Positions 935 through 37,142 of a stretch of 37,142 nucleotides of DNA are shown piece by piece. The stretch's first letter is position 1; each line of letters starts with the position of its first letter. The stretch is taken from the IMG/VR virus record IMGVR_UViG_2737471867_000005; one strand, written 5' to 3'. This DNA comes from a virus (taxonomy: Duplodnaviria; Heunggongvirae; Uroviricota; Caudoviricetes). The translations under genes and the position numbers were made by a program. The notes beneath the pieces were generated by a model. That model saw only the letters and a program-made list of their open reading frames with translations. It had not been told where the DNA came from and did no database searches.

Positions 935-2620
935 GTGAATATAAACGTCGCCGAATTGTTAAATGGGAATTACATTCTGTTATTATTTGTGGTCCTCGCG
1001 CTTGGGCTATGTCTCGGAAAGTTACGACTTGGTTCGATCCAACTGGGTAATTCCATTGGCGTTTTAGTCGTATCGCTGTTATTAGGCCAACAACATTTCA
1101 GCATTAACACCGATGCGCTTAATCTTGGCTTTATGCTGTTTATTTTCTGCGTCGGGGTCGAAGCCGGACCGAACTTTTTTTCCATTTTTTTTCGCGATGG
1201 GAAAAATTACCTAATGTTAGCACTGGTGATGGTTGGCAGTGCGCTGGTGATCGCCTTAGGGTTAGGTAAGCTGTTTGGCTGGGATATTGGCCTGACGGCC
1301 GGTATGTTAGCAGGCTCTATGACGTCGACACCGGTTCTGGTCGGTGCTGGCGATACACTGCGTCATTCCGGCATGGAAAGCAGGCAGCTCTCACTGGCAC
1401 TGGATAATCTGAGCCTCGGGTATGCCTTAACCTATTTAATCGGTCTGGTGAGTTTGATTGTTGGTGCGCGTTACTTGCCGAAATTGCAGCATCAGGACTT
1501 ACAGACCAGCGCCCAGCAAATCGCCCGCGAACGTGGCCTGGACACTGATGCCAACCGTAAGGTTTATTTACCGGTGATCCGCGCCTATCGCGTCGGCCCG
1601 GAGCTGGTGGCCTGGACCGACGGCAAAAATCTGCGTGAACTGGGTATTTATCGACAAACCGGCTGCTACATTGAACGTATTCGACGTAACGGGATTCTGG
1701 CAAATCCAGACGGTGATGCCGTGCTACAAATGGGCGATGAAATAGCGTTGGTAGGCTATCCCGACGCCCATGCCCGACTCGATCCCAGCTTCCGTAACGG
1801 TAAAGAAGTTTTCGATCGTGACCTTCTCGACATGCGTATCGTCACTGAAGAAGTGGTCGTTAAAAACCATAACGCTGTAGGTAAACGTCTCGCACAACTG
1901 AAGTTGACCGATCACGGTTGCTTCCTTAACCGCGTCATTCGTAGCCAGATTGAGATGCCGATAGATGACAACGTCGTGCTTAACAAAGGTGACGTTTTAC
2001 AAGTCAGCGGTGATGCCCGTCGCGTAAAAACCATCGCCGATCGCATCGGCTTTATCTCGATTCACAGCCAGGTCACTGACCTGCTGGCATTTTGCGCCTT
2101 CTTTGTTATTGGGCTGATGATCGGGATGATCACCTTCCAGTTCAGCACATTCAGTTTCGGCATGGGGAACGCTGCCGGGTTGTTATTCGCCGGAATTATG
2201 CTGGGCTTTATGCGTGCTAACCACCCGACCTTCGGTTACATTCCGCAAGGTGCATTAAGCATGGTGAAAGAGTTCGGCTTGATGGTGTTTATGGCAGGCG
2301 TTGGTCTGAGCGCCGGTAGCGGTATTAATAACGGCCTGGGCGCGATTGGCGGTCAGATGTTGATTGCCGGATTAATTGTCAGTCTTGTGCCCGTGGTTAT
2401 CTGTTTCTTGTTCGGTGCTTATGTATTGCGAATGAACCGCGCACTGTTGTTCGGCGCAATGATGGGCGCACGCACCTGCGCGCCGGCAATGGAGATCATC
2501 AGTGATACAGCTCGCAGTAACATCCCTGCGCTGGGCTATGCGGGCACCTACGCAATCGCCAACGTCCTGCTGACGCTGGCAGGGACAATCATCGTCATGG
2601 TATGGCCAGGATTAGGATAA
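935..2620 (+). CDS. ybjL: putative AAE-family transporter YbjL
   Basis: 561-aa polytopic membrane protein with a central cytoplasmic region; matches E. coli YbjL in length and synteny. Confidence 0.9.
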
Positions 2621-10144: not shown

Positions 10145-10717
10145 TCAGGGGGATTCATTGATCTTATTTGCCGGAAATTTTCTATAAATGGTAGAAACGC
10201 CTACATCAAAAATCAGTGCAATACGCTGTCTTGATTCTCCGGCCTCGAGTAAACGCCCAATCTGTGCCCACTGTTCGGTGGTCAACTTAGGACGGCGTCC
10301 ACCTACTCTGCCTTTGGCACGAGCTGCAGCCAGCCCTGCCCTGGTACGTTCAACTATCAGTTCGCGTTCCATTTCAGCCATGGCACCCATGACATGAAAA
10401 AAGAAACGGCCCATTGGGGTACTGGTATCAATACTGTCAGTCAGGCTTCTGAAATTCACACCACGCTGGCGCAACTCTTCTATCAGCGTAACAAGATGCC
10501 GCATACTGCGCCCCAACCTGTCCAGCTTCCAGACAACCAGCGTGTCTCCTGCCGATAGTGTCCTGAGTAGTTTTTTCAGCCCCGGTCTGTCGGACTTAGT
10601 GCCACTGATTTTGTCCTCAAAAATCTGCTCACATCCCGCGCAGTTCAGTGCATTACGTTGCAAATCGGTGTTCTGGTCATTTGTTGACACGCGTACATAG
10701 CCAATAAGTATGATCAT
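10145..10717 (-). CDS. serine DNA invertase (Gin/Pin/Cin/Hin family)
   Basis: 190-aa protein with N-terminal IGYVRVSTNDQ catalytic-serine motif and a C-terminal HTH; adjacent to inverted tail-fibre segments. Confidence 0.9.
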   Translation of the reverse strand: MIILIGYVRVSTNDQNTDLQRNALNCAGCEQIFEDKISGTKSDRPGLKKLLRTLSAGDTLVVWKLDRLGRSMRHLVTLIEELRQRGVNFRSLTDSIDTSTPMGRFFFHVMGAMAEMERELIVERTRAGLAAARAKGRVGGRRPKLTTEQWAQIGRLLEAGESRQRIALIFDVGVSTIYRKFPANKINESP

Positions 10718-10738: not shown

Positions 10739-11215
10739 ATGATGCCAGTTAGCTGTTACCTCTGCATTTTCTTAAACGTTCAATTGGGAGAAGCGGCAAA
10801 ACGGGATGTCGGAACCGGTAATAATCAACTCCCGGACATGTCCGCATTTGGTATGTCGCGAAACGGACAAACTGCCTGGGATATTCTCCCAAATGGTATG
10901 ATTCGACAGGCTGGCACTGTGACACTGACACCAGTTGGTAACTTCAACGCGCAGGTGCTTGGTGGGGTGACGTACTACACCCATTACTACAGGGTTAATT
11001 TCCCCAGACAATTCCCAAATGCACAAATAGCAACGCTGGCAACACTAGCGAGTTACAGCTATTCGACCCAGGCAACAATGGCCGGAAAATCACTGGCAAC
11101 GCATCGCGATACTGATTCTGGCACTGACGTATCAAGAACGCGATTCACTGTGACGTATACGACACCCAATCTCGGCGAAACACCGACACTGCATTTTGAA
11201 GCAATAGGATACTAA
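10739..11215 (+). CDS. alternative tail-fibre C-terminal segment (H variable part prime; no own start, expressed only after inversion)
   Basis: Shares the LGE...AA(K/T)RDVG junction motif with H but runs in the opposite direction; the ATG at 10739 is only an ORF-track start. Confidence 0.65.
   Translation: MMPVSCYLCIFLNVQLGEAAKRDVGTGNNQLPDMSAFGMSRNGQTAWDILPNGMIRQAGTVTLTPVGNFNAQVLGGVTYYTHYYRVNFPRQFPNAQIATLATLASYSYSTQATMAGKSLATHRDTDSGTDVSRTRFTVTYTTPNLGETPTLHFEAIGY
10767..10792. other. invertase recombination site (left, gix/cix-like)
   Basis: 26-bp quasi-palindrome TTTTCTTAAACG-TT-CAATTGGGAGAA with one half-site TTCTCCCAAttg. Confidence 0.55.
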
Positions 11216-21804: not shown

Positions 21805-23571
21805 ATGAACACCACACTGACACCCGCAGATCTCGATCCCCGTCGGCAGGCCATGCTGCTGTACTTTCAGGGATACCGCGTAGCCCGCATTGCTGAAATG
21901 CTGGGCGAGAAAGTTGCAACCGTTCACAGCTGGAAAAAACGCGACAAGTGGGGTGACTATGGGCCGCTGGATCAGATGCAGCTCACCACCGCCGCACGCT
22001 ACTGCCAGCTCATTATGAAGGAGCACAAAGAAGGGAAAGATTTCAAAGAGATTGACCTGCTGGCGCGCCAGTCGGAGCGCCATGCGCGGATCGGCAAGTT
22101 TAACAATGGCGGCAACGAAGCCGACTTAAACCCTAACGTCGCCAACCGCAACAAAGGCCCACGCCGTCAGCCGGAAAAGAACGTTTTCACCGATGAACAG
22201 ATTGAGAAGCTGGAAGAAATTTTCCATTCCTCCATGTTCAACTACCAGCGCCACTGGTGGGAAGCCGGAAAAACCAACCGCATCCGCAACCTGCTGAAGT
22301 CACGCCAGATCGGCGCGACCTTTTACTTTGCCCGTGAAGCCCTGATTGACGCCCTGCTTACCGGACGTAACCAGATTTTCCTTTCCGCCAGTAAGGCACA
22401 GGCCCACGTCTTTAAACAGTACATCATCGACTTCGCCAAAGAAGTAGAGGTGGAGCTGAAAGGCGATCCGATGGTGCTTCCCAACGGGGCCACACTGTAT
22501 TTCCTCGGCACCAATGCCCGCACGGCCCAGAGTTATCACGGCAACCTGTATCTGGATGAATATTTCTGGATACCGAAATTTCAGGAGCTGCGCAAAGTGG
22601 CTTCCGGTATGGCTATTCACAAAAAATGGCGACAAACCTATTTTTCCACGCCATCCAGTCTGACACACAGTGCTTATCCGTTCTGGTCCGGTGCGCTGTT
22701 CAACCGTGGGCGCAACAAAGCCGATAAGGTGGACATCGACCTGTCCCACAGCAATCTGGCCCCCGGCCTGCTGTGCGCAGACGGGCAATACCGCCAGATA
22801 GTCACCGTGGAAGATGCGGTACGCGGCGGCTGTAACCTGTTCGACCTCGACCAGCTACGCATGGAGTACAGCCCGGATGAATACCAGAACCTGCTGATGT
22901 GCGAGTTTGTGGACGATCTCGCGTCCGTGTTTCCGCTCAGCGAGCTGCAGGCGTGCATGGTGGACAGTTGGGAAGTCTGGACCGACTTTCATGCACTGGC
23001 GCTGCGCCCGTTTGGCTGGCGCGAAGTGTGGATCGGTTATGACCCGGCAAAAGGCACGCAAAACGGCGACAGCGCCGGATGCGTGGTGGTGGCACCGCCA
23101 GCCGTGCCGGGTGGTAAGTTCCGCATTCTTGAGCGTCACCAGTGGCGCGGGATGGACTTCCGCGCCCAGGCTGACGCCATCAAAAAACTGACCGAACAGT
23201 ACAACGTGACCTATATCGGTATCGACTCAACCGGCGTTGGTCACGGGGTTTACGAGAACGTGAAAGCGTTTTTTCCTGCCGTCCGGGAGTTTGTCTACAA
23301 CCCCAACGTTAAAAACGCCCTGGTACTCAAGGCCTACGACATTATCAGCCACCGCCGTCTGGAGTTTGACGCCGGACACACCGACATAGCGCAGTCCTTT
23401 ATGGCAATCCGTCGCGCCACCACCGCCAGTGGCAACCGCCCGACCTATGAAGCCAGCCGCAGCGAAGAAGCCAGCCACGCCGATCTGGCCTGGGCAACGA
23501 TGCACGCACTGTTTAACGAACCGCTGCAGGGCGAATCCGCCAATACCAGCAATATTGTGGAGATTTTTTGA
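21805..23571 (+). CDS. P: terminase large (ATPase) subunit P
   Basis: 588-aa ORF. Confidence 0.9.
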   Translation: MNTTLTPADLDPRRQAMLLYFQGYRVARIAEMLGEKVATVHSWKKRDKWGDYGPLDQMQLTTAARYCQLIMKEHKEGKDFKEIDLLARQSERHARIGKFNNGGNEADLNPNVANRNKGPRRQPEKNVFTDEQIEKLEEIFHSSMFNYQRHWWEAGKTNRIRNLLKSRQIGATFYFAREALIDALLTGRNQIFLSASKAQAHVFKQYIIDFAKEVEVELKGDPMVLPNGATLYFLGTNARTAQSYHGNLYLDEYFWIPKFQELRKVASGMAIHKKWRQTYFSTPSSLTHSAYPFWSGALFNRGRNKADKVDIDLSHSNLAPGLLCADGQYRQIVTVEDAVRGGCNLFDLDQLRMEYSPDEYQNLLMCEFVDDLASVFPLSELQACMVDSWEVWTDFHALALRPFGWREVWIGYDPAKGTQNGDSAGCVVVAPPAVPGGKFRILERHQWRGMDFRAQADAIKKLTEQYNVTYIGIDSTGVGHGVYENVKAFFPAVREFVYNPNVKNALVLKAYDIISHRRLEFDAGHTDIAQSFMAIRRATTASGNRPTYEASRSEEASHADLAWATMHALFNEPLQGESANTSNIVEIF

Positions 23572-24599
23572 TGGGAAAGAGTAAGAAGAACCGCGCTGCG
23601 GCGACGAAACAGATCCAGCTTAAAAGTCAAACTACAGCCGAAGCATTCAGCTTCGGCGATCCCGTTCCTGTTCTGGACCGCCGAGAACTGCTGGATTATG
23701 TGGAATGCGTACAGATGGACCGCTGGTATGAGCCGCCCGTCAGCTTTGACGGACTGGCGCGCACCTTCCGCGCTGCCGTGCATCATAGTTCCCCGATTGC
23801 AGTAAAGTGCAACATTCTGACCAGCACCTACATCCCTCACCCGCTGCTCAGCCAGCAGGCTTTTTCGCGTTTTGTTCAGGACTATCTGGTATTTGGTAAC
23901 GCCTACCTGGAGAAACGCACGAACCGCTTCGGTGAAGTTATCGCCCTTGAACCTGCCCTGGCAAAATACACCCGACGCGGGTTAGACCTGGATACCTACT
24001 GGTTTGTGCAATACGGTATGACCACGCAGCCATATCAGTTCACGAAAGGCAGCATCTTTCATCTGATGGAACCGGACATCAACCAGGAGATCTACGGCCT
24101 GCCCGGTTATCTTTCTGCCATTCCGTCAGCCCTGCTCAACGAGTCCGCCACGCTGTTCCGCCGAAAGTATTACATTAACGGCAGTCATGCTGGCTTCATC
24201 ATGTACATGACCGATGCCGCGCAGAACCAGGAGGACGTGAACAACCTCCGCAATGCGATGAAAAGCGCCAAAGGCCCTGGCAACTTCCGCAACCTGTTTA
24301 TGTACTCGCCTAACGGCAAAAAGGACGGGCTTCAGATTATTCCTCTGTCAGAAGTCGCGGCAAAGGATGAATTTTTGAATATCAAGAACGTGAGCCGGGA
24401 TGACATGATGGCAGCACACCGAGTGCCGCCGCAAATGATGGGGATAATACCGAATAATGTTGGGGGATTTGGGGATGTGGAGAAGGCTAGTAAGGTTTTT
24501 ATGCGTAATGAATTGATACCGCTACAAAACAGAATAGAAGAACTCAATAAATGGCTCAAAGATGACATAATAAAATTCATGCCATACAGTTTCATATAA
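23568..24599 (+). CDS. Q: portal protein Q
   Basis: 343-aa ORF; the last ~50 codons change to AT-rich codon usage. Confidence 0.88.
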   Translation: MMGKSKKNRAAATKQIQLKSQTTAEAFSFGDPVPVLDRRELLDYVECVQMDRWYEPPVSFDGLARTFRAAVHHSSPIAVKCNILTSTYIPHPLLSQQAFSRFVQDYLVFGNAYLEKRTNRFGEVIALEPALAKYTRRGLDLDTYWFVQYGMTTQPYQFTKGSIFHLMEPDINQEIYGLPGYLSAIPSALLNESATLFRRKYYINGSHAGFIMYMTDAAQNQEDVNNLRNAMKSAKGPGNFRNLFMYSPNGKKDGLQIIPLSEVAAKDEFLNIKNVSRDDMMAAHRVPPQMMGIIPNNVGGFGDVEKASKVFMRNELIPLQNRIEELNKWLKDDIIKFMPYSFI

Positions 24600-24605
24600 A
24601 ACTAA

Positions 24606-24624
24606 GGGCCGAATACCTCGGCCC
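24606..24624. terminator. GC hairpin between convergent Q and the accessory gene
   Basis: GGGCCGA-atacc-TCGGCCC; weak T-tract on either side. Confidence 0.4.
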
Positions 24625-24630
24625 TCTACA

Positions 24631-26304
24631 TTAAGATTTATGGCTAAAGAGTATACCTGTAACAGAACGTTGATAGGCATCAAGCTTCTCTTGCCTCTGC
24701 TTAAATTTAGATTTGATATCACTAATACTCGGAATACCTATTACTCCAAGGCCTGCACTTAACGCCGCTAAAGTAGTATTGCCAGTCAGCGCTCCAGCAA
24801 TTGCTATAGCACCATTTGCGATACATGGTAGGACATCCAGTCCGTAAATTCTCAATTTCTCTTTTTGGGCTTTTGCAAGAATCCTTTGATGTTCAATAAA
24901 AGCCCGGTCTACATTATCAATTACTTTTTGCGTTGTCCTCGAAAAGCTCTCTGCCGAAGAATTGATTAAAGAGTCAACACCATTTGATAAGATGGATCTT
25001 ACATCCTCCATCAATTTGTTACGTCTCAACTCAATTATTTTATTGACCGGTACATTTCCTAACCATGAAAAACCATCTTGCATACCAGCAGATAACGCAT
25101 GAACCATATGCAAATTTTTTAGTTCAATATCATTGACATCAAAATTAAGAGATTCGTACTCAATAAGCCAAGTATAATAGAGCCAAGATGTGTCTGCATT
25201 TATATATGGAGTACTACCAAGTTCTTGTGCATTACATTTTGCTGAATAGGCTTGCGGCATTCTTCCAATGCAGGAAAGGAAAACCTCCATTCCAGCATAA
25301 TCACCAACAACATTACGTGATATTCTTTTTTTATCAGATAGTAGTTTTTCTAATTGAGTTTTTGGATTTAGCCCCCATGCTGTATCAAAAATAAGTCTAT
25401 CTGCTCTCTTAATATTTTTAAGAACAGCATCAATATCATTCATCGAATAACTAAAATCTTGAAATTCATCGTAGCTTTCGAACCGTCGATCATAGAGATA
25501 TTGCGCATGAGTCAGAGCATAAGGCTCACAAAAACTCATCAAATTTTTTTTGCTCTCAGTTTCAAAATCTCTTCTATCCGGCAAAATTAATACTATTGCT
25601 GGCTCTATATCTTCAAGCGCTACTTCTTTATATGTCATACATGTTAGGACATGCTTCAGAAGTATCCTTGTAAACTCAGCCTTATCTGACTTTTCATAGA
25701 GACGACCGACTCTTAATATAGGACATGGAAGTGAAATAGTATCAACATACAACCCTGCAATAGAGACAGCATTCTCATCAAATGCAGGAAATAAGTCACC
25801 AGAAAAATTAGCTTTAAACTGAGAACCATCCTGCAAATGTATTACACCAATATCGGATGTTACCTGCCAAAACTCTATTACCTGATTATATAACTCAGGA
25901 AAAATACCTTCTATTTGCTTAACATATTCTTCTTGTTGAGAAAAAAAACTTGATGCTTTATGTGGCGTTGCATTAGTTTTTTTCATCAGATAAAACAACT
26001 CGCCAAAATTACTAAAAAGAATATTAAAGTAAGAACTTTGCAAGTCCTGAATAGAGTATTTGTTTTTTATATCTTCTCTTTCTAAAAAGTGATTAACCGC
26101 TGCTCCCATAGCCCTTATTCTGCCATCAACAGTAGAAGGGTCAACTTTACCATCCTGTCGCAGACTTATTCTTTTAAAACTTTCAATAAAACCTTCTACA
26201 AGATGATGAGCTATTTTTAGTTTTCCCGCTTCCAGTTGTTGCTTAATGAGAAAAACACGCTCAGTTAAATCGTCTACATATTCCTCATCTTGATATTTTT
26301 CCAT
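24631..26304 (-). CDS. uncharacterised 557-aa accessory protein with C-terminal glycine-zipper membrane segment
   Basis: Long AT-rich ORF with a GGAG RBS. C-terminal GAIAIAGALTG...LSAGLGVIGIP is hydrophobic and Gly-rich; no motif I can assign. Confidence 0.75.
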   Translation of the reverse strand: MEKYQDEEYVDDLTERVFLIKQQLEAGKLKIAHHLVEGFIESFKRISLRQDGKVDPSTVDGRIRAMGAAVNHFLEREDIKNKYSIQDLQSSYFNILFSNFGELFYLMKKTNATPHKASSFFSQQEEYVKQIEGIFPELYNQVIEFWQVTSDIGVIHLQDGSQFKANFSGDLFPAFDENAVSIAGLYVDTISLPCPILRVGRLYEKSDKAEFTRILLKHVLTCMTYKEVALEDIEPAIVLILPDRRDFETESKKNLMSFCEPYALTHAQYLYDRRFESYDEFQDFSYSMNDIDAVLKNIKRADRLIFDTAWGLNPKTQLEKLLSDKKRISRNVVGDYAGMEVFLSCIGRMPQAYSAKCNAQELGSTPYINADTSWLYYTWLIEYESLNFDVNDIELKNLHMVHALSAGMQDGFSWLGNVPVNKIIELRRNKLMEDVRSILSNGVDSLINSSAESFSRTTQKVIDNVDRAFIEHQRILAKAQKEKLRIYGLDVLPCIANGAIAIAGALTGNTTLAALSAGLGVIGIPSISDIKSKFKQRQEKLDAYQRSVTGILFSHKS

Positions 26305-26405
26305 AAACGCTCCATTAAAATATTTAATAATGCATATAAGAATAATTAATAATATTTACAGTAACTATATCACATTAGATCCAGATTGTTACACTGTTGC
26401 GCGCG

Positions 26406-26424
26406 CTCGTATCCCCGCCACGCC
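26406..26424. other. cos-like site (cohesive-end core)
   Basis: Minus-strand GGCGTGGCGGGGATACGAG matches the first 13 nt of the P2/186 cohesive end as I recall it (GGCGTGGCGGGGAAAGCAT), followed by GCGCGC. Confidence 0.55.
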
Positions 26425-26624
26425 TGCCCACTTTATGTAGTGGTTTTCATGCACCTGCATGACATAAGCAAAAGCACGCCAGTTCTGGCTGGCATCAGCG
26501 AAAACGATCGTCATACTATCATGCGATCTCATGCGCCATATGAAGTTTTCCTGACACAGCCTTGGGTTGGGATAACACCTAACTCAGGAAGATTTTTTGT
26601 GTGTTTGTAACCCACACCTAGAGT

Positions 26625-27794
26625 TTACCAATCCATGTTTGCGGCATTATCCATCTCACGAGTTAAGTAATTAACAAATAAGTCCATATTCCTTTCTGAT
26701 TTCATCGCCTCCGCATAGGTTCCATTAGTTACGTAAGATAGTATTAAAGGACATCCAGATTCAATATAAATTTTTGCTGGGGACAGTTCTCCCTGCCACA
26801 AATTTTCAAGGAAATCGTTAATTAATTGCATTGCTTCAGGTGCCAAAAAATGCACACCATTTCCAAACTTGAAACGTTCTTTATTTTCTCGATGAGGCAG
26901 CAATAGTGGCACAGCCCCTACACTTGAGTGAAATTCCAATGCTTGCCCATCCTTACCGAAGGCGCCATGGGCTACAAAATTACGCACCTGTTTTCTGAGT
27001 ATAAGTAAACGATCATAGAACAATTTTAGGCTGGAAGAGTTAATATCAATGGCTAATTTGAATTTCTCCCCCCATTCTTTTCCAACTTTATCAGCCACAT
27101 CATTCCCATTTTTTATCTCACCCTTCAAGATTGCAATAAGAATGAAAACATGCTCGGTCCAATTGAAAAATGACTCAATTGCAGACGTTGCTAACCACAT
27201 AGCCTCTCTTCGGAGTTCAATTATCTTATTTGATTGTTCAAAAGTGGATTGTAACAGGCTGAAAAAATTATCAGACTTAAACTCACTATCAACTTCCAGT
27301 TTAGACTCTTGGCCAGCAGCAACTTCATCAAGCTTCTGTTTATATAGCTCTAAAAAATAGCAAAACCTATCATAAAGAGAATTAGCATTGTTATTAACAT
27401 TTAGATTTGAAGTCTTTGCTGCATTGTCTGCAAGCGAATCAAAAAAATTCGTAGCAGCTTTAACCCCTGCGCAAATATGTCTCAAAACAGTTTTAGCTTG
27501 CTCTATATCATCATCACTCTTGATAAATATATCTAAACCAAGTTTACGATGTTCTATAATTACGACAGTCCCATCAATCCGGACTGGGATAGAAAAAGAA
27601 ATCTTCTCATCAACCCCACGATTTTTAAATTTCAGTAAATCTACCAAAAGAAAATAAACGAGATAATACGGAGGTAATGAGTCTCCCAAACCCGAGCGCT
27701 TACCCCAAAAATATTCATCAAGCTCGGCAGACTCCATTGTCCCTATGACTCTTCGGACGCGTTCTTCAACTTTAGCCAGATCCATTCCCCACAC
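26625..27794 (-). CDS. uncharacterised 389-aa accessory protein with HEPN-like R-x4-H motif
   Basis: AT-rich ORF; RNFVAH motif at plus 26967..26984. Start uncertain (GTG at 27794 or ATG at 27785). Confidence 0.7.
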   Translation of the reverse strand: MWGMDLAKVEERVRRVIGTMESAELDEYFWGKRSGLGDSLPPYYLVYFLLVDLLKFKNRGVDEKISFSIPVRIDGTVVIIEHRKLGLDIFIKSDDDIEQAKTVLRHICAGVKAATNFFDSLADNAAKTSNLNVNNNANSLYDRFCYFLELYKQKLDEVAAGQESKLEVDSEFKSDNFFSLLQSTFEQSNKIIELRREAMWLATSAIESFFNWTEHVFILIAILKGEIKNGNDVADKVGKEWGEKFKLAIDINSSSLKLFYDRLLILRKQVRNFVAHGAFGKDGQALEFHSSVGAVPLLLPHRENKERFKFGNGVHFLAPEAMQLINDFLENLWQGELSPAKIYIESGCPLILSYVTNGTYAEAMKSERNMDLFVNYLTREMDNAANMDW

Positions 27795-27955
27795 CGCCTT
27801 TCAATATCACTTAAGGTATTACAGCCAATGACATCGATTAAATACAGCGTAGATAATAGGCAACTTGCTACTGTTTTCAAGGGCTTTCTGTTTCAATCCT
27901 TAGTTGACCTTGCTGACGCGAGAATCTAGTTCTCACGCCAGCAACGCCCCTGCTG

Positions 27956-28144
27956 CTAACCGAGAAGATCCATTACACGGTTATATTCATGGGCACGAAT
28001 TTTCGCCATCAACTCATCAGTCAGCTCTGAAACCCACTGCAGAGCCAGCCCCTTCTCTTCATCACTACACTCACTAGCCGCTACAAGCTTAAGAAAAAAA
28101 TCAATGCGCTGGAGCTTCAAAGACTCCAAAAAATAGTCCTGCAT
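27956..28144 (-). CDS. small hypothetical protein (62 aa)
   Basis: ATG at 28144 preceded by a perfect AGGAGG-aaaa spacer; AT-rich. Confidence 0.55.
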   Translation of the reverse strand: MQDYFLESLKLQRIDFFLKLVAASECSDEEKGLALQWVSELTDELMAKIRAHEYNRVMDLLG

Positions 28145-28297
28145 TTTTCCTCCTATGACACCACAAGCAATACTGTATGCATAACCACTGTTTATATTTA
28201 CAGTATATAATAATCTTACTGATGTAAAACGTTTTTTTACGTTCATCAGCCTGATATGCCTGGTATTATTAAGAGCACGAATTGTTAATCCGCGTAA

Positions 28298-30712
28298 TTA
28301 ATACAGGTTCCGCCACTTATCATCTTCCCACAAACGCTGGTTCCGATAGAAGATACGCAAGCCTGCTCCTGACGGAATACTGCCGCCGCGAAGGAGTAAA
28401 TCGACCTCTTTCTCGCTGCCATCAAATCCTCTGGACTTCAGCTCATAGACGAGCTGCAGTCGCTGATGGTCTGTAATTCGCTGTTTGTAGTCTTTACGCC
28501 GTTTCGGTTTAACCAGGCGTAACCTTGCTGCCAGATCCCGGCGCTCTTTTTTGCTCATACTGTGCAGGTAATCGTGCAACTCCTTGTCATCCATGCGGGT
28601 AATGTCCGTTCTGGTGTCCCCATCAGCTGATTTATCTTTCTCCTGTTGGTTCAAATTTTCAGCAAGGGGACAGTTATTGCCACGAGTCCAAGGGGCGCAA
28701 GCGCCCTGGTCGGCTGCCGCCTCCTGAACGTCAACGGCTTTACGAACCATTTTCCACTTCACTGCATGAGTGCAGATCTTGCCCTCTGCAATGGGTGACC
28801 AGATGCCATAAATACGAATGCCGTGATCGCCATAGGCGGTCGGCTCTTCGTTGATTTCATAAGCGGTTCTGATGAGGTGATATTTACGGGGAACCAGTAC
28901 GCCGCCCTGCTTCATGATGTAGGTGGCAAAACAACCAGCATCAGCAGCAGCCAAGATGGCATCAAGGCGCGGGTTATCCAGTACCGGCGCACCTGCTTTT
29001 TTGTCCCCCTGTTGCCTTGCCGCCTGACCAGCCAGCAATCGCAGTTCACGGTAAGCCTGACGCCCCGGAATGCCAAAGAAGCGGAATTGCTGAACACGAT
29101 GCAAAGACGCCCAGGCGTTCACGTATTCAGCGTTATCACGCAGAGATTTACCCGTTTCCTTGCTGATCTCGCCAGCCAGACCACGCCCGTCAATGTTCTT
29201 ACTGATGTATTTCGCTATGTAGCTTGTCGGCGTTCCTTTGCGCGGGTTAATCAGCTCAGACTTAAAGCGCGGCCCCGTGTTATTGCCCAGCTCCTCGCGG
29301 TCTTCACGGATAGCAAACTTACGCAACAATGCAGTAATGGCGCGGCGGTCTTTTTTGCGCATGAAACACAACAGGTGCCAGTGAACTGTGCCGTCGTGAT
29401 GCGGCTCAGCCACCCGCACGCCATACCAGCGCAACCCGGCTTTGTGCATCGCCTTACGAAATGCAGCAAACATACCGACCAGATAATCGCTGCTTTGTCT
29501 TACCGTCGCATTTGTCCAGGTCGGGTTGGGCCTGCCGTTATTTAGCGTGGAATGGAAACGTGACGGACAGGTGATGGTGTAGAAAACGGCGCAGTCACCG
29601 CGCATTTCCGCGATAAGCTCCAGACCTTTAACACAGGCCATCATCTCATTGCGGCGATGCGCAGGGTTGCTGCTGCTGGCGTTTACCACATCCTCCATGT
29701 CCAGCGTGTCGCCGTCTTCGTTCACCAGTTCATGAGAACGGAAAAACTCCAGCGACTTACGGTGCTGCTCACGTTTATGCAACACGGCTTCATAGCTGAC
29801 ATAGGGAGATGCTTTTTTGCTGACAAGGCAGACAGCACGCAACTGCTCTTCCCGCCATTCGCAACGCATCTTCCATAATTTCCGATACCACCAGTCGGCG
29901 CACAACATACGCGCCAGCGAACCCGGAATGAGTTCATAGGGCACGGGTTTACGGCGGTTTCTTTTCCGACGGAGTTGCTCAAACGCAGGCGGGATGACAT
30001 CCAGACGCAGGGTTTCCGCTGCCACCCTTTCCCATGTATTGCGGATTTCTTCTGGCTTAACGTCATCGGTGGCATACAAATCGCCACAAGCGGCATCAAG
30101 GCACATACTCATATGCGCAGCTACCAGGGTGGACAGGCGTTTCACCTGATCCTGACTCATTTCAGGCAGGATCAGCAGGCCGTCCAGCCCTTCATGGCTT
30201 GCCATAAAGCGAAAAGATGCAGATAGCTGACTGTCGCGTACATGCTCCAGTCGTTCCAGACATGGCTTAATCGTCTCACGTAAATAGCGGGAATAAGCCT
30301 TTGGCCTGCCCAGGCTGCTGAAGTATTCAATACGTTGCATCAGCGGCTTGCTGATATGGGAAGGCTGGGCGTTGACGTCCGCCAGAATGACCATATCCGG
30401 ATTAAAACGCTGCTGCTCATGCGCCAGCTTTGCCCGACTAATGAGCTTATCCTGTTCCATTTCGCGCTGGACAGGATCACGGGATTCATTAAAGAAATAA
30501 CGCTCCCAGACCTGATCACTCAGCGCCTCACGGCGCAGCTGTTCCTGCTCGTTATCGGCAGCGTACAGAGTGATCAGGTTTGAAAGCGTAGAAACCGGCG
30601 CAACTTCCACCGTGTCCAGATAAGGGTTAATGGCCTTTTTCGGGCTGTTCCATGAGAACGATGCGGCGACCTCGTTAAAGCCGCTGCAGTTGTTCATATC
30701 AGCATGGCTCAT
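28298..30712 (-). CDS. A: rolling-circle replication initiator A
   Basis: 804-aa ORF in the P2 gene A position. Confidence 0.85.
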
Positions 30713-33712: not shown

Positions 33713-34309
33713 ATGTCAACATCAAAGTACCCAAGTGAGATCAAAATAAATCCCAATAAAGGTGGTAAGGCTGCGATTGAGCGATTAGTCGAAGCTTATG
33801 GCTTTACGACACGACAGGCTTTAGCTGATCACTTGGAAGTATCAAAAAGCACTCTGGCGAACAGGTATTTGCGGGATACGTTTCCTGCAGACTGGATAAT
33901 CCAATGTGCTCTTGAAACAGGAACCTCACTGAAATGGTTAACCACCGGGCAAGGACTTAAGCAAAGCTCGCTGACAGTAGCCACAGAAGAGCTTCCCAAG
34001 TTTCGCCTTACCGCAGGCAAAATGATTGAAGATGGTTCATATGTCTTCGATTCATCATTTCTTCCTGCAAATCTTTCATCACCAATTGTTATTCTGGATG
34101 GGCTTGTCACATACATTTGTGATCAAAAATTTTCTGAAGTACTTGATGGGCACTGGTTAATCAACATCGACGGAACCTATTCCATTCGAAAAATCACAAA
34201 GCTTCCAAAAGGTATGATTAAAATTACAACTACAGAGAATAGCTTTGAATGTGCATTTTCTGATATTGAAGTGGTTGCTTGTATAAGAAGTACAATAGTT
34301 TCAAATTGA
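33713..34309 (+). CDS. cI: CI immunity repressor (phage 186 type)
   Basis: 198-aa protein with an N-terminal HTH; position and sequence are 186 CI-like. Confidence 0.85.
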   Translation: MSTSKYPSEIKINPNKGGKAAIERLVEAYGFTTRQALADHLEVSKSTLANRYLRDTFPADWIIQCALETGTSLKWLTTGQGLKQSSLTVATEELPKFRLTAGKMIEDGSYVFDSSFLPANLSSPIVILDGLVTYICDQKFSEVLDGHWLINIDGTYSIRKITKLPKGMIKITTTENSFECAFSDIEVVACIRSTIVSN

Positions 34310-34329: not shown

Positions 34330-36006
34330 ATGAATTCATTTTCCATCGTTATATTCTTATTAGCATTTCTCGCCCCTGTTCTAGCTATAATATTATTTAA
34401 GCAAAGTAAAGAACACAAAACCGCCATAGATAACCTGACGGCTAACAACATAGCTCTTTCCAGCCAACTGAAAGAAAATCAAGAAGAATTAGCACAGACT
34501 GTACGAGATCTATCAGAGCTTGAAGGACGAGCTGCACCATTATGGCAATACGTAGAATTGCACAGCGCAGTGATGGAAGCAGAGAATAAGATAAAAAATG
34601 CAGACTCAATAGCCAGGCAAAAAATAGAAGAAGCCCAAATAAAGGCTGCTAAGACAGTAAACGAAGCAAATTATCAAGCTCAGATAACAATAAGCAACGC
34701 TAATAGCGAAGCTATAGCAATCACCAAAGACGCTCGCGATGCACGCCTGAAAGCCAAAGAACGTCTTGATAATGCCAACAGTAAAGCAAATGAGCTGATC
34801 TCAAATGCTAATGACAACGCAGTAAAAATTATTTCCGATGCAGAAGAAAGAGCAAAAGAGATTGCTGGTTCAGCATATGAAGCTAAAGAGTTTGCAGAAA
34901 AATATGAAGCAGTTGCCAAATCAATGAAAAATAAAATTGAAGGTTATGGCGATGAATGGATCATCCCTAACCGTAGTGTACTTGATGAATTGGCAGAAAA
35001 TTATGAGTTTACAGATGCAGGCAAGGAATTACAAAAAGCCAGGGAGTTAACAAAATCATTAATAAAAACTAATAAAGCAGCTTCGTGTGATTATGTTGAG
35101 CCAAACAGGCGTAATACTGCTATCAACTTTGTTTTGGATGCCTTCAATGGAAGAGTTGACAGTATTTTATCAAAAGTCAAACACAACAATTTTGGAAAAC
35201 TTTCCCAAGAAATAAAAGATGCATTTCAACTTGTAAATTATAATGGCTCTGCTTTTAAATCCGCAAAAATAAGTGACATCTATCTTCAGGCACGACTCAA
35301 CGAGCTAAAATGGGGAGTTGCAGTTAATGAAATTATGCTCAAAGAAAAAGAGGAGCAAAGAAGGATTAAAGAACAGCTTCGTGAAGAGGAAAGAGCTCGT
35401 AGAGAGTATGAAAAAGCGATAAAAGAAGCCGAAAAAGAAGAGAAAGCTATTCAGCAAGCTATAAATAAAGCGACGAAAGAGCTTATGCTTGCAAATGAAG
35501 AACAACGCTTAGCTTTAGAGCAAAAAATAGCTGAACTACAGTTAAAATATGAAGAAGCTGAAGCTAAAAACCAACGAGCTATTTCTATGGCTCAACAAAC
35601 TAGATCAGGCCATGTTTATATAATTAGCAATATTGGCTCATTTGGCGAAGATGTATATAAAATTGGAATGACACGCCGCCTTGAACCACTTGATCGTGTT
35701 CGTGAACTTGGGGATGCTAGTGTTCCTTTTTCGTTCGATGTTCATGCGATGATTTATAGTGATGATGCACCGTCATTAGAAAATCATCTGCATAAAGTCT
35801 TCAACGAAAAGCAGGTCAATAAAATTAACTCACGAAAAGAGTTTTTTAACGTAAATATTAAAGAAATTAAATCGGTTATTGAAGATATGAACATCAATGC
35901 CCACTGGACAATGTTTGCAGAGGCGAAAGAATATAGAGAGTCACTAGCTATTGAGCAGGAACGCAAAGCAGCCACTTCCGCCAACGATGAACTACATGTT
36001 GCTTAG
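34330..36006 (+). CDS. membrane-anchored coiled-coil protein with C-terminal T5orf172/GIY-YIG-like domain
   Basis: N-terminal TM helix (FSIVIFLLAFLAPVLAIILF), a long K/E/A-rich coiled coil, and a C-terminal GHVYIISN...YKIGMT motif from about 35608. AT-rich; inserted between cI and int. Confidence 0.8.
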   Translation: MNSFSIVIFLLAFLAPVLAIILFKQSKEHKTAIDNLTANNIALSSQLKENQEELAQTVRDLSELEGRAAPLWQYVELHSAVMEAENKIKNADSIARQKIEEAQIKAAKTVNEANYQAQITISNANSEAIAITKDARDARLKAKERLDNANSKANELISNANDNAVKIISDAEERAKEIAGSAYEAKEFAEKYEAVAKSMKNKIEGYGDEWIIPNRSVLDELAENYEFTDAGKELQKARELTKSLIKTNKAASCDYVEPNRRNTAINFVLDAFNGRVDSILSKVKHNNFGKLSQEIKDAFQLVNYNGSAFKSAKISDIYLQARLNELKWGVAVNEIMLKEKEEQRRIKEQLREEERARREYEKAIKEAEKEEKAIQQAINKATKELMLANEEQRLALEQKIAELQLKYEEAEAKNQRAISMAQQTRSGHVYIISNIGSFGEDVYKIGMTRRLEPLDRVRELGDASVPFSFDVHAMIYSDDAPSLENHLHKVFNEKQVNKINSRKEFFNVNIKEIKSVIEDMNINAHWTMFAEAKEYRESLAIEQERKAATSANDELHVA

Positions 36007-36089: not shown

Positions 36090-37142
36090 ATGGCAGTACG
36101 AAAACTCACCACAGGAAAATGGCTGTGCGAATGTTATCCCGCCGGACGTAGTGGACGTCGTGTGCGTAAACAATTCGCCACCAAAGGCGAAGCTCTGGCT
36201 TTTGAGCGTCACACGATGGAAGAAACCGAAGCAAAGCCCTGGCTAGGTGAATCAGTGGATCGTCGAACACTGAAAGATGTGGTTGAGCTATGGTTCAAAC
36301 TACATGGTAAATCACTGACTGCTGGGCAGCATGTCTATGACAAATTGCTGCTGATGGTTGACGCTCTGGGCAATCCCCTTGCAACTGATCTAACCTCTAA
36401 AATGTTTGCCCACTATCGAGATAAACGCCTGACAGGCGAGATCTACTTCAGCGAGAAATGGAAGAAAGGAGCAAGCCCGGTCACCATTAACCTGGAGCAA
36501 AGCTATCTAAGTAGTGTTTTTAGCGAACTATCCCGTCTGGGCGAATGGTCGTATCCGAACCCACTGGAGAACATGCGAAAATTCACCATCGCAGAAAAAG
36601 AGATGGCATGGCTTACCCATGAGCAGATTGTTGAATTGCTGGCTGATTGCAAACGTCAGGACCCAATTCTGGCACTGGTAGTTAAGATATGCTTAAGCAC
36701 AGGCGCACGCTGGCGTGAAGCCGTAAATCTTACCCGCTCACAGGTGACCAAATACCGAATTACCTTTGTCAGAACGAAGGGGAAGAAAAACAGAAGCATC
36801 CCTATCAGTAAAGAGCTTTACGAAGAGATCATGGCGCTCGATGGGTTCAATTTCTTCACAGACTGCTATTTTCAATTTTTATCCGTGATGGAAAAAACGT
36901 CTATCGTGCTCCCTCGCGGTCAACTCACACACGTTCTGCGCCATACGTTTGCAGCGCACTTCATGATGTCGGGTGGAAACATTCTGGCCTTACAAAAAAT
37001 TCTCGGACACCACGATATAAAAATGACTATGCGTTACGCACATCTGGCACCGGATCATCTGGAAACGGCGCTCCGTTTCAATCCTCTGGCAACGCTGCCA
37101 AGTGGCGACAAAGTGGCGGCAGCGGTTGGCATTACCCCGTAA
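36090..37142 (+). CDS. int: tyrosine integrase (P2 Int family)
   Basis: 350-aa ORF with C-terminal HxLRHT and MRYAHL catalytic tyrosine region; its stop codon is the last 3 nt of the window. Confidence 0.9.
   Translation: MAVRKLTTGKWLCECYPAGRSGRRVRKQFATKGEALAFERHTMEETEAKPWLGESVDRRTLKDVVELWFKLHGKSLTAGQHVYDKLLLMVDALGNPLATDLTSKMFAHYRDKRLTGEIYFSEKWKKGASPVTINLEQSYLSSVFSELSRLGEWSYPNPLENMRKFTIAEKEMAWLTHEQIVELLADCKRQDPILALVVKICLSTGARWREAVNLTRSQVTKYRITFVRTKGKKNRSIPISKELYEEIMALDGFNFFTDCYFQFLSVMEKTSIVLPRGQLTHVLRHTFAAHFMMSGGNILALQKILGHHDIKMTMRYAHLAPDHLETALRFNPLATLPSGDKVAAAVGITP

What the first reader, a model, noticed from the sequence alone, without database searches (positions are those of the whole stretch)
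24631..26304. 557-aa unknown protein with a C-terminal glycine-zipper membrane segment, placed between Q and cos
The large soluble N-terminal region has no motif I can recognise (no P-loop, no obvious nuclease signature). The C-terminal ~60 residues form a Gly/Ala-rich hydrophobic stretch (GAIAIAGALTG...LSAGLGVIGIP) typical of membrane-inserting or pore-forming effectors. That architecture fits a single-protein abortive-infection effector and may be a previously undescribed family. Its position between the portal gene and cos is also atypical.
Basis: inference. Interest (0 to 1): 0.8.

Follow-up and report, generated by a model that had tools for sequence, protein, structure and literature searches.

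The report
Untested defence-candidate gene beside P2 cos
This is an intact accessory gene in the known variable "defence hotspot" of a P2-like prophage; its 557-residue protein is uncharacterised, distantly resembles one protein of the Aditi anti-phage system and ends in a weakly hydrophobic helical hairpin, so it is a reasonable but unproven and already catalogued candidate anti-phage gene.

Summary
A 557-aa ORF lies on the minus strand at 24631-26304, between portal gene Q and the cos core (26412-26424). It has its own promoter-like site and terminator, 34-39% GC against about 55% in the phage backbone, and a conserved Ala/Gly-rich hairpin at residues 489-527.

The interpretation needs correcting in three ways.
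- **Position.** It is not atypical: the gpQ-gpA interval is the published P2 defence hotspot.
- **Prior description.** Rousset et al. 2022 list this protein in Table S5B as untested "System #79" (no Pfam, 49 occurrences, "2 TM").
- **Orphan status.** It matches the PADLOC DitB model (Aditi) at E = 1.6e-10, as do 28 of 79 diverse relatives. 29 of 79 match Avs1c at the N-terminus. No DitA partner exists, so it is not an Aditi system.

No Pfam, NCBIfam, PHROG, PDB or viral-structure match was found. The family is large (761 clusters), always standalone, and sits among known defence systems, in P2-like prophages and in loci with P4-like satellite genes.

The hairpin is only marginally hydrophobic and its GxxxG motif is not conserved. 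Pore formation is therefore conjecture.

Best reading: a single-gene, membrane-associated, DitB-like anti-phage candidate. Interest is moderate.

The parts
24631..26304 (-). CDS of the 557-aa protein (WP_040082409.1), the finding itself
   Evidence: Full-length conservation in 212 homologues and 761 cluster representatives.
26080..26277 (-). N-terminal helical segment (about residues 10-75), equivalent to the region that matches the PADLOC Avs1c model in relatives
   Evidence: 29 of 79 family members hit Avs1c, best E = 5.3e-7. The query itself does not reach E <= 1, so the coordinates are inferred from the family alignment.
24949..25722 (-). DitB-like core (residues 195-452), holding most near-invariant residues: H266, R348, P366, S373, W374, R427, R436 (D188 and T189 lie just upstream of it)
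   Evidence: PADLOC DitB E = 1.6e-10, profile positions 95-344 of 361. 28 of 79 relatives also hit DitB. Conservation.
24724..24840 (-). Ala/Gly-rich, marginally hydrophobic helical hairpin (residues 489-527) with a conserved G-x-P turn
   Evidence: AF2 places helices at 454-507 and 510-521. Phobius '2 TM' in Rousset Table S5B.
24604..24626 (-). GC-rich hairpin plus T-run, a terminator-like site in the 31-bp gap between the convergent Q and ORF557
26364..26392 (-). Sigma-70-like promoter (GTAACA-17-TATAGT with TG extension), 60-88 bp upstream of the ATG
   Evidence: This is a consensus match only.
26396..26540 (.). Conserved cos region; core GGCGTGGCGGGGA at 26412-26424 on the minus strand
23568..24599 (+). 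Portal gene Q, which bounds the hotspot
28298..30712 (-). Replication gene A, the other hotspot boundary

Best explanation
ORF557 is a self-contained cargo gene of the cos-proximal gpQ-gpA hotspot of a P2-like prophage. It is probably expressed in the lysogen from its own promoter.

The protein has three parts:
- an N-terminal helical region that is Avs1c-like in relatives;
- an alpha/beta core distantly homologous to DitB of the two-gene Aditi defence system;
- a long helix leading into a small-residue-rich helical hairpin, then an amphipathic helix with a conserved P-x-G-L-L-F tail.

Its most likely role is single-gene anti-phage defence. In this model the cytoplasmic DitB-like body senses infection or carries the activity, and the hairpin tethers the protein to, or conditionally inserts it into, the inner membrane.

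Shown: the gene is intact, conserved, mobile and standalone; it has DitB and Avs1c homology; its neighbours are defence genes; the hairpin is conserved.

Inferred: the defence phenotype, membrane association, and whether the outcome is abortive infection or exclusion.
For: Location and origin
- It sits in the published P2 defence hotspot. GC is 34-39% against about 55% in the backbone.
- Occupancy is variable. It is in 17 of 5426 complete E. coli genomes, while 1260 carry matches to the 3.9-kb locus query, mostly its Q/A flanks.
- It has its own promoter-like site and terminator.

Standalone status
- Neighbours differ between genomes: DinI only, DUF2971, or ORF389.
- No conserved partner appears in any of 26 loci examined.

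Homology
- It is homologous to a validated defence protein, DitB, at E = 1.6e-10; 28 of 79 relatives also match. 29 of 79 match Avs1c.

Genomic company
- Among 106 ORFs within three ORFs of the gene in 20 GTDB genomes there are strong hits to MADS, PARIS AriA, HEC-01, Lamassu, AbiL, Septu, type IIG RM, DpdF, ThsA, Old and RT-TIR.
- The same loci give the P4-satellite-type domains Psu and DUF927 primase.
- In Aquitalea it is Tn7-like cargo next to a Gabija-like gene pair.

Structure
- The family keeps full length and a hairpin in 761 clusters.
- The AF2 model is confident, with pLDDT 83.9.
Against: - There is no experimental phenotype. Rousset catalogued this protein but did not test it.
- Aditi's own mechanism is unknown, so the homology gives no mechanism.
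- No DitA partner is present.
- The hairpin is only marginally hydrophobic. It could be a buried hairpin in a soluble protein.
- The neighbour enrichment was not compared with a matched background, and ORFs were called crudely.
- The fold matches nothing informative.
Confidence: 0.5

Rival explanations
1. It is a superinfection-exclusion protein. It is constitutively anchored in the inner membrane and blocks genome entry of incoming phages without killing the cell. This is still defence, but not abortive infection.
For: - It is prophage-encoded with its own promoter.
- Both hairpin flanks carry net positive charge, which fits an N-in/C-in anchor.
- Phobius TM.
Against: - The cytoplasmic body is large (about 490 aa) and highly conserved, with near-invariant polar residues. 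That looks more like an enzyme or sensor than a plug.
- Homologues sit on transposons and chromosomal islands beside abortive-type systems.
- Hydrophobicity is too low for a classical anchor.
Confidence: 0.15
2. It is a non-defence moron. Examples would be a host-fitness or envelope factor, a counter-defence gene, or selfish cargo with no role in phage resistance.
For: - All database names are 'hypothetical protein'.
- The hotspot also carries non-defence genes such as DinI and StbA/plasmid-stability genes.
- A 2026 survey's machine-learning methods flagged only 15-32% of unknown P2 proteins as defence-associated.
Against: - It shows homology to DitB and Avs1c models.
- It is repeatedly adjacent to many unrelated defence systems in distant taxa.
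Confidence: 0.22
3. It forms a two-gene system with the neighbouring 389-aa HEPN-like protein (26625-27794).
For: - The two genes are adjacent, on the same strand, and both low in GC.
- ORF389 has an invariant R-N-x3-H motif.
Against: - The pair occurs in only 1 of the 17 E. coli genomes that carry ORF557.
- ORF389 occurs with other partners in Rousset Table S5A.
- The two genes are separated by the cos site and a terminator-like hairpin at 26476-26495.
- No ORF389 homologue is a conserved neighbour elsewhere.
Confidence: 0.04
4. It is a phage packaging or structural accessory linked to cos or the portal.
For: The cos core lies 70-155 bp upstream of the gene in three divergent elements.
Against: - It is absent from about 99% of E. 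coli genomes that match this locus's P2-like flanks.
- It has no PHROG, Pfam or BFVD match.
- Homologues occur where no cos or phage is present.
Confidence: 0.03

Closest known systems
Aditi defence system, protein DitB (Millman et al. 2022)
   Same: Significant profile similarity over about 70% of the DitB model: residues 195-452 against profile positions 95-344 of 361, E = 1.6e-10. This is reproduced in 28 of 79 diverse relatives. Both proteins lack any known domain.
   Different: - Aditi needs two genes, and no DitA is present or fused here.
- This protein is about 200 aa longer, with an extra N-terminal helical region and a C-terminal long helix plus hydrophobic hairpin.
- It is found here mainly in Proteobacteria and on P2-like and other mobile elements. 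The validated Aditi system comes, from my memory, from a Firmicute.
Rousset et al. 2022, P2-hotspot 'System #79'
   Same: It is the same protein at about 99% identity: single gene, no Pfam, '2 TM', 49 occurrences between gpA and gpQ.
   Different: Nothing differs. That catalogue entry carries no name, no test and no homology statement. The DitB and Avs1c links, the family size and the extra-phage contexts are added here.
Avs1c, the small third gene of type 1 AVAST in PADLOC
   Same: The N-terminal ~65 residues of 29 of 79 family members match the 86-position Avs1c model, best E = 5.3e-7.
   Different: - The query itself does not reach significance.
- No STAND NTPase/protease (Avs1b) or MBL nuclease (Avs1a) is nearby.
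- The role of Avs1c is unknown.
Membrane-acting abortive-infection effectors with TM hairpins (the 2-TM and 3-TM partners in Rousset's systems; RexB and CBASS/Pycsar TM effectors from general knowledge)
   Same: It has a helical hairpin flanked by positive charge, sits in a defence hotspot, and has a plausible membrane end-point.
   Different: - Here the hairpin is a small part of a large conserved protein.
- The hairpin is far less hydrophobic than real TM helices.
- There is no separate sensor gene.

Membership tests
Aditi (DitA + DitB) | Protein homologous to DitB | tested here: met
   PADLOC DitB E = 1.6e-10, 38 bits, covering 250 of 361 profile positions. 28 of 79 relatives also match.
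Aditi (DitA + DitB) | Adjacent DitA gene (two-gene system) | tested here: not met
   Neither ORF389, nor the small ORF at 27956-28246, nor the N- and C-terminal segments of ORF557 hit DitA, even at E <= 10. No conserved neighbour appears in 26 loci.
Aditi (DitA + DitB) | DitB-sized protein (about 360 aa) without membrane segment | tested here: not met
   The protein is 557 aa. About 100 extra residues lie N-terminal of the aligned region and about 105 C-terminal of it, the latter including the hairpin.
Aditi (DitA + DitB) | Anti-phage phenotype | not testable with these tools
   Needs plaque assays.
Cargo of the P2 cos-proximal gpA-gpQ hotspot (Rousset 2022) | Located between portal gpQ and replication gpA, next to cos | tested here: met
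   Q at 23568-24599, cos core at 26412-26424, A at 28298-30712.
Cargo of the P2 cos-proximal gpA-gpQ hotspot (Rousset 2022) | Variable content between otherwise syntenic prophages; foreign composition | tested here: met
   Different gene sets lie between the same Q and A genes. GC is 34-39% against about 55%. The protein is listed as System #79.
Transmembrane pore-forming / abortive-infection effector | Bona fide transmembrane helices | tested here: inconclusive
   Kyte-Doolittle maximum of 1.62 is borderline. Phobius reports '2 TM'. Hessa-type sums are +7.2 and +4.6, with a family median of +4.8, against -3.15 for a permease helix.
Transmembrane pore-forming / abortive-infection effector | Conserved glycine zipper (GxxxG repeats) | tested here: not met
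   G504 is Ala in 73% of the family. Only G498 (71%), the turn Gly (G508) and P525 (71%; most relatives also have Pro at the turn, where the query has T510) recur.
Transmembrane pore-forming / abortive-infection effector | Toxicity or membrane depolarisation on activation | not testable with these tools
   Needs expression and dye assays.
AVAST type 1 | STAND NTPase-protease (Avs1b) and MBL nuclease (Avs1a) in the locus | tested here: not met
   No such hits for any ORF in the hotspot. Only the N-termini of relatives resemble Avs1c.
Eleos / dynamin-like LeoBC | Dynamin GTPase domain; reproducible LeoBC similarity | tested here: not met
   LeoBC scores E = 0.003 in the query only, 1 of 79 members. 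There is no GTPase domain in Pfam.
Phage structural or packaging protein | Homology to a known virion or packaging family | tested here: not met
   PHROGs none. Pfam none. BFVD best E = 0.37. PDB none.

The most novel reading that the evidence does not exclude
ORF557 would found a widespread single-gene immune family (at least 761 clusters at 50% identity). In it, a DitB-type core and an Avs1c-type N-terminus are fused to a conditionally inserting membrane hairpin. The fold has no solved relative. Working out its trigger and activity would also give the first mechanistic handle on the so far unexplained Aditi system and on the orphan Avs1c gene of type 1 AVAST.
Probability: 0.35. Interest if true: 0.6.

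Novelty: new variant of a known kind. Interest (0 to 1): 0.42.

Why it matters
If the gene protects against phages, it would turn an anonymous catalogue entry into a tractable one-gene model. The entry is System #79 of the P2 hotspot. The model would serve a family found across Proteobacteria and some other phyla.

It would also link that family to Aditi, a validated defence system whose two proteins have no recognisable domains and no known mechanism. The near-invariant residues (D188, T189, R348, S373, W374, R427, R436) and the hairpin give immediate mutational targets.

If it does nothing against phages, it is one more unexplained moron of P2-like prophages.

Either way, the finding does not reveal a new genomic principle. 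The hotspot and the 'unknown protein with TM' pattern are already well documented.

Tried and rejected
- **Standard P2 cos search.** The 19-mer recalled from memory gave no match with up to 3 mismatches. The cos core was found later by reading the sequence and comparing it with cos sequences printed in Rousset Table S2A.
- **Core-only structure.** An AF2 model of residues 150-455 reached only pLDDT 60.8. The core is not an independent domain, and the model was not used for fold search.
- **afdb50 Foldseek.** The library was unavailable.
- **Foldseek against PDB and BFVD.** Nothing scored below E = 0.37.
- **LeoBC (Eleos) similarity.** Rejected as spurious, since only 1 of 79 members matches.
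- **N-terminal extensions.** The ~200-aa extensions in a subgroup have no Pfam hits, and the one extension scanned on its own (P0226) gave no informative PADLOC hit.
- **A wrong guess of mine.** I supposed that WP_000952962 in Rousset's table was this protein. It is a 394-aa protein.
- **Literature by accession.** A search of full texts found nothing. The accessions are also absent from the held parts of the DefensePredictor supplements. The 2026 NAR paper has no held supplements.
- **First paper search.** The terms 'Aditi/DitB' were too loose and the search was wasted.
- **Real DitA/DitB sequences.** I could not obtain them. The Aditi link therefore rests on the PADLOC profile alone.

Full report
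**1. What is there**

The window is a P2-like prophage of E. coli. It is 99.9% identical to strain 1283 across the 3.9-kb locus compared (24400-28300).

The layout around the finding is as follows:
- Terminase P (21805-23571) and portal Q (23568-24599) read rightwards.
- The 557-aa ORF (24631-26304) reads leftwards and converges on Q.
- A 320-bp non-coding stretch follows.
- Next comes a 389-aa ORF (26625-27794, minus strand) and a small ORF.
- Replication gene A lies at 28298-30712 on the minus strand.

GC falls to 34-39% between 25 and 28 kb, against 55-58% in the structural genes.

The 31-bp gap between Q and ORF557 holds a GC-rich hairpin followed by a T-run (24604-24626). A sigma-70-like promoter with an extended -10 lies 60-88 bp upstream of the ATG. 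The gene therefore looks like its own transcription unit.

**2. cos**

The core GGCGTGGCGGGGA occurs once in the window, at 26412-26424 on the minus strand. None is expected by chance.

Three further observations identify it as cos:
- It lies in a 145-bp block (26396-26540) that is non-coding and 85-92% identical in Fels-2, SopEPhi and P2-like phages of Yersinia and Klebsiella.
- Its extended form, GGGCAGGCGTGGCGGGGATACGAGCGCGCGC, matches the cos cores in the P4-like sequences printed in Rousset Table S2A.

The same cos core sits 70-155 bp upstream of the homologous gene in three elements:
- the E. coli prophages;
- a Serratia P2-like prophage, where the protein is 46% identical;
- a small island carrying an integrase and an Ogr/Delta gene, where the protein is 47% identical.

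**3. Is the position unusual?**

No. Rousset et al. 2022 defined the gpA-gpQ interval around cos as a hotspot. They report 1,650 gene arrangements in 18,150 E. coli loci, many of them defence systems. A 2026 survey confirms this.

Their Table S5B lists this very protein (MEKYQDEEYVDDL...). It is 'System #79': no Pfam, 49 occurrences, single protein, '2 TM'. Its sequence is absent from their table of tested systems. It is therefore catalogued but untested.

I found no later paper that cites its accessions.

**4. Distribution**

In complete E. coli genomes the gene is rare. It is in 17 of 5426, all at least 99% identical. By contrast, 1260 genomes match the 3.9-kb locus query, mostly through its Q/A flanks.

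Its neighbours differ between genomes: DinI alone, a DUF2971 protein, or the 389-aa ORF. The exact pair seen in this window occurs in only one complete genome. ORF557 is therefore an independent cassette.

Beyond E. coli:
- 212 homologues were found by word-seeded search. All are about 555-560 aa, all are 'hypothetical', and none has a Pfam domain.
- An exhaustive profile search found 761 cluster representatives at E <= 1e-3, and 265 at E <= 1e-30.
- A subgroup carries an unannotated N-terminal extension of about 200 aa.

**5. Homology**

Pfam, NCBIfam and PHROGs give nothing significant.

PADLOC gives DitB of the Aditi system at E = 1.6e-10. The match covers residues 195-452 against profile positions 95-344 of 361.

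I scanned 79 mutually diverse family members individually:
- 28 hit DitB, best E = 1.1e-10.
- 29 hit Avs1c, best E = 5.3e-7, through their N-terminal ~65 residues.
- The weak LeoBC hit is unique to the query, so I discard it.

No part of the protein and no neighbour hits DitA.

Aditi is described as two proteins with no detectable domains. It was still unclassified in 2024. The homology therefore supports a defence role but supplies no mechanism.

**6. Structure**

AlphaFold2 with a 30-sequence alignment gives a confident model, with mean pLDDT 83.9 and pTM 0.75. Its elements are:
- a helical N-terminal region (7-158);
- an alpha/beta part with four short strands (164-167, 189-192, 238-240, 365-367), which carry the conserved loops;
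- further helices, then a 54-residue helix (454-507) that runs into the first hydrophobic segment;
- a turn, helix 510-521, an amphipathic helix (527-545) and a short terminal helix.

The fold searches gave nothing informative:
- Foldseek against PDB and against viral models gives nothing below E = 0.37.
- Profile search of PDB sequences gives nothing.

The core alone does not fold confidently. It therefore depends on the N-terminal helices.

Residues conserved in at least 85% of the 98 aligned sequences (query plus 97 representatives), given in query numbering, include W146, H156, G169, P173, Y186, D188, T189, P195, position 236 (Pro in 99%; Ala in the query), H266, R348, P366, S373, W374, R427, R436 and N464. 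This pattern suggests a binding or catalytic site, but I cannot name it.

**7. The 'membrane' segment**

The hairpin is conserved across the family. Median length is 38 residues, 46% of residues are G/A/S/T, most members have three or fewer charges, there is a G-x-P turn, and the flanks are positively charged.

It is only marginally hydrophobic:
- The Kyte-Doolittle maximum is 1.62.
- A crude Hessa-type sum gives +7.2 and +4.6 for the two halves, with a family median of +4.8.
- The best helix of the permease encoded at 935-2620 in the same window scores -3.15.

The single GxxxG motif is not conserved. Phobius called 2 TM.

I therefore treat membrane association as plausible. It could be a short N-in/C-in hairpin, a monotopic wedge, or a hairpin that inserts only on activation. 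A constitutive pore-former is not supported.

**8. Genomic company**

The individual contexts examined are:

| Host or source | Context of the homologue |
|---|---|
| Aquitalea | Tn7-like cargo beside a Gabija-like OLD-TOPRIM ATPase/UvrD-helicase pair and an HNH protein |
| Aeromonas | Integrase island next to mutS |
| JGI metagenome contigs | Near a reverse-transcriptase-like gene, DUF5677 and a PAAR module |
| Serratia | Same Q-proximal slot of a P2-like prophage, beside an AAA_15/21 ATPase |

I also took the three nearest ORFs on each side in 20 GTDB genomes, giving 106 proteins.
- These include strong PADLOC hits to MADS, AriA, HEC-01, LmuB, AbiL, PtuA, a type IIG RM enzyme, DpdF, ThsA, Old and RT-TIR.
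- Pfam shows the P4-type domains Psu and DUF927 primase, plus integrases.
- This is qualitative. ORFs were called crudely and no background was computed.

**9. Conclusion**

The most likely reading (about 0.5) is a standalone, DitB-like anti-phage gene that acts at or from the inner membrane.

Lesser alternatives are:
- an exclusion protein;
- a non-defence moron;
- a pair with the HEPN-like neighbour;
- a packaging role.

It is not an Aditi system, because the defining DitA partner is absent and the architecture differs. I rate it a new variant of a known kind.

Interest is moderate. The family is large, its fold has no solved relative, and it may open up Aditi. However, the locus type, the '2 TM unknown protein' pattern and this very protein are already in the literature as an untested candidate.

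Noticed in passing
window 34330-36006 (+): A 558-aa low-GC ORF lies between the CI repressor (33713-34309) and the integrase (36090-37142). It is a strong PD-Lambda-1 match (PADLOC E = 2e-119) with DUF4041 and T5orf172/MUG113 domains. This is a second, known defence gene at another P2 hotspot of the same prophage.
   Followed up: partly
window 26625-27794 (-): The neighbouring 389-aa ORF (WP_032248694) belongs to a separate large uncharacterised family: 1041 homologues, no Pfam, no PADLOC hit. It has an invariant R271-N272-x3-H276 motif, which is HEPN-like, plus invariant T213-E214-H215. It appears with other partners in Rousset Table S5A. It is a candidate RNase-type defence gene on the A side of cos.
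   Followed up: partly
window 26412-26424; L001-L003 3513-3525; L010/L011 6919-6931; L008 7833-7845: The cos core lies 70-155 bp upstream of the ORF557 homologue, in the same relative orientation, in three divergent elements: E. coli P2-like, Serratia P2-like, and an integrase + Ogr/Delta island. The gene seems to travel as a 'cos-gene' unit at the extreme left end of the packaged genome.
   Followed up: partly
family members such as P0150 residues 3-68 and P0217 residues 309-374: The N-terminal ~65 residues of 29 of 79 relatives match the PADLOC Avs1c model, the small third gene of type 1 AVAST. One possibility is that Avs1c is a fragment or relative of this family's N-terminus. This was not tested.
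   Followed up: no
P0226, P0233, P0238, P0245, P0249 and others (about 735-750 aa); L012: A subgroup carries a conserved N-terminal extension of about 200 aa with no Pfam hit. The one locus examined (P0226, L012) lies next to mutS with no detected mobile-element genes.
   Followed up: partly
CP019275.1 / NZ_CP019275.1 8489-10163: A 37.4-kb extrachromosomal record of E. coli 13P477T is a P2-like phage genome carrying this gene. It has a 1-bp length difference and the gene is annotated as two CDSs, so the copy is probably frameshifted.
   Followed up: no
L001 3490-3615 (about window 26389-26514): RefSeq annotates a 41-aa 'hypothetical protein' (WP_265327973.1) that overlaps the cos core. It is probably a spurious gene call.
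   Followed up: no
window 10145-10717 (-) and 10739-11215 (+): A resolvase/invertase gene lies next to an ORF matching a tail-fibre C-terminal domain (Gp53-like_C). This would fit an invertible tail-fibre switch, but no inverted repeats were sought.
   Followed up: no
window 935-2620 (+): A host Asp-Al_Ex/TrkA_C permease gene lies to the left of the phage genes. The left prophage boundary therefore lies between about 2620 and 3165.
   Followed up: no
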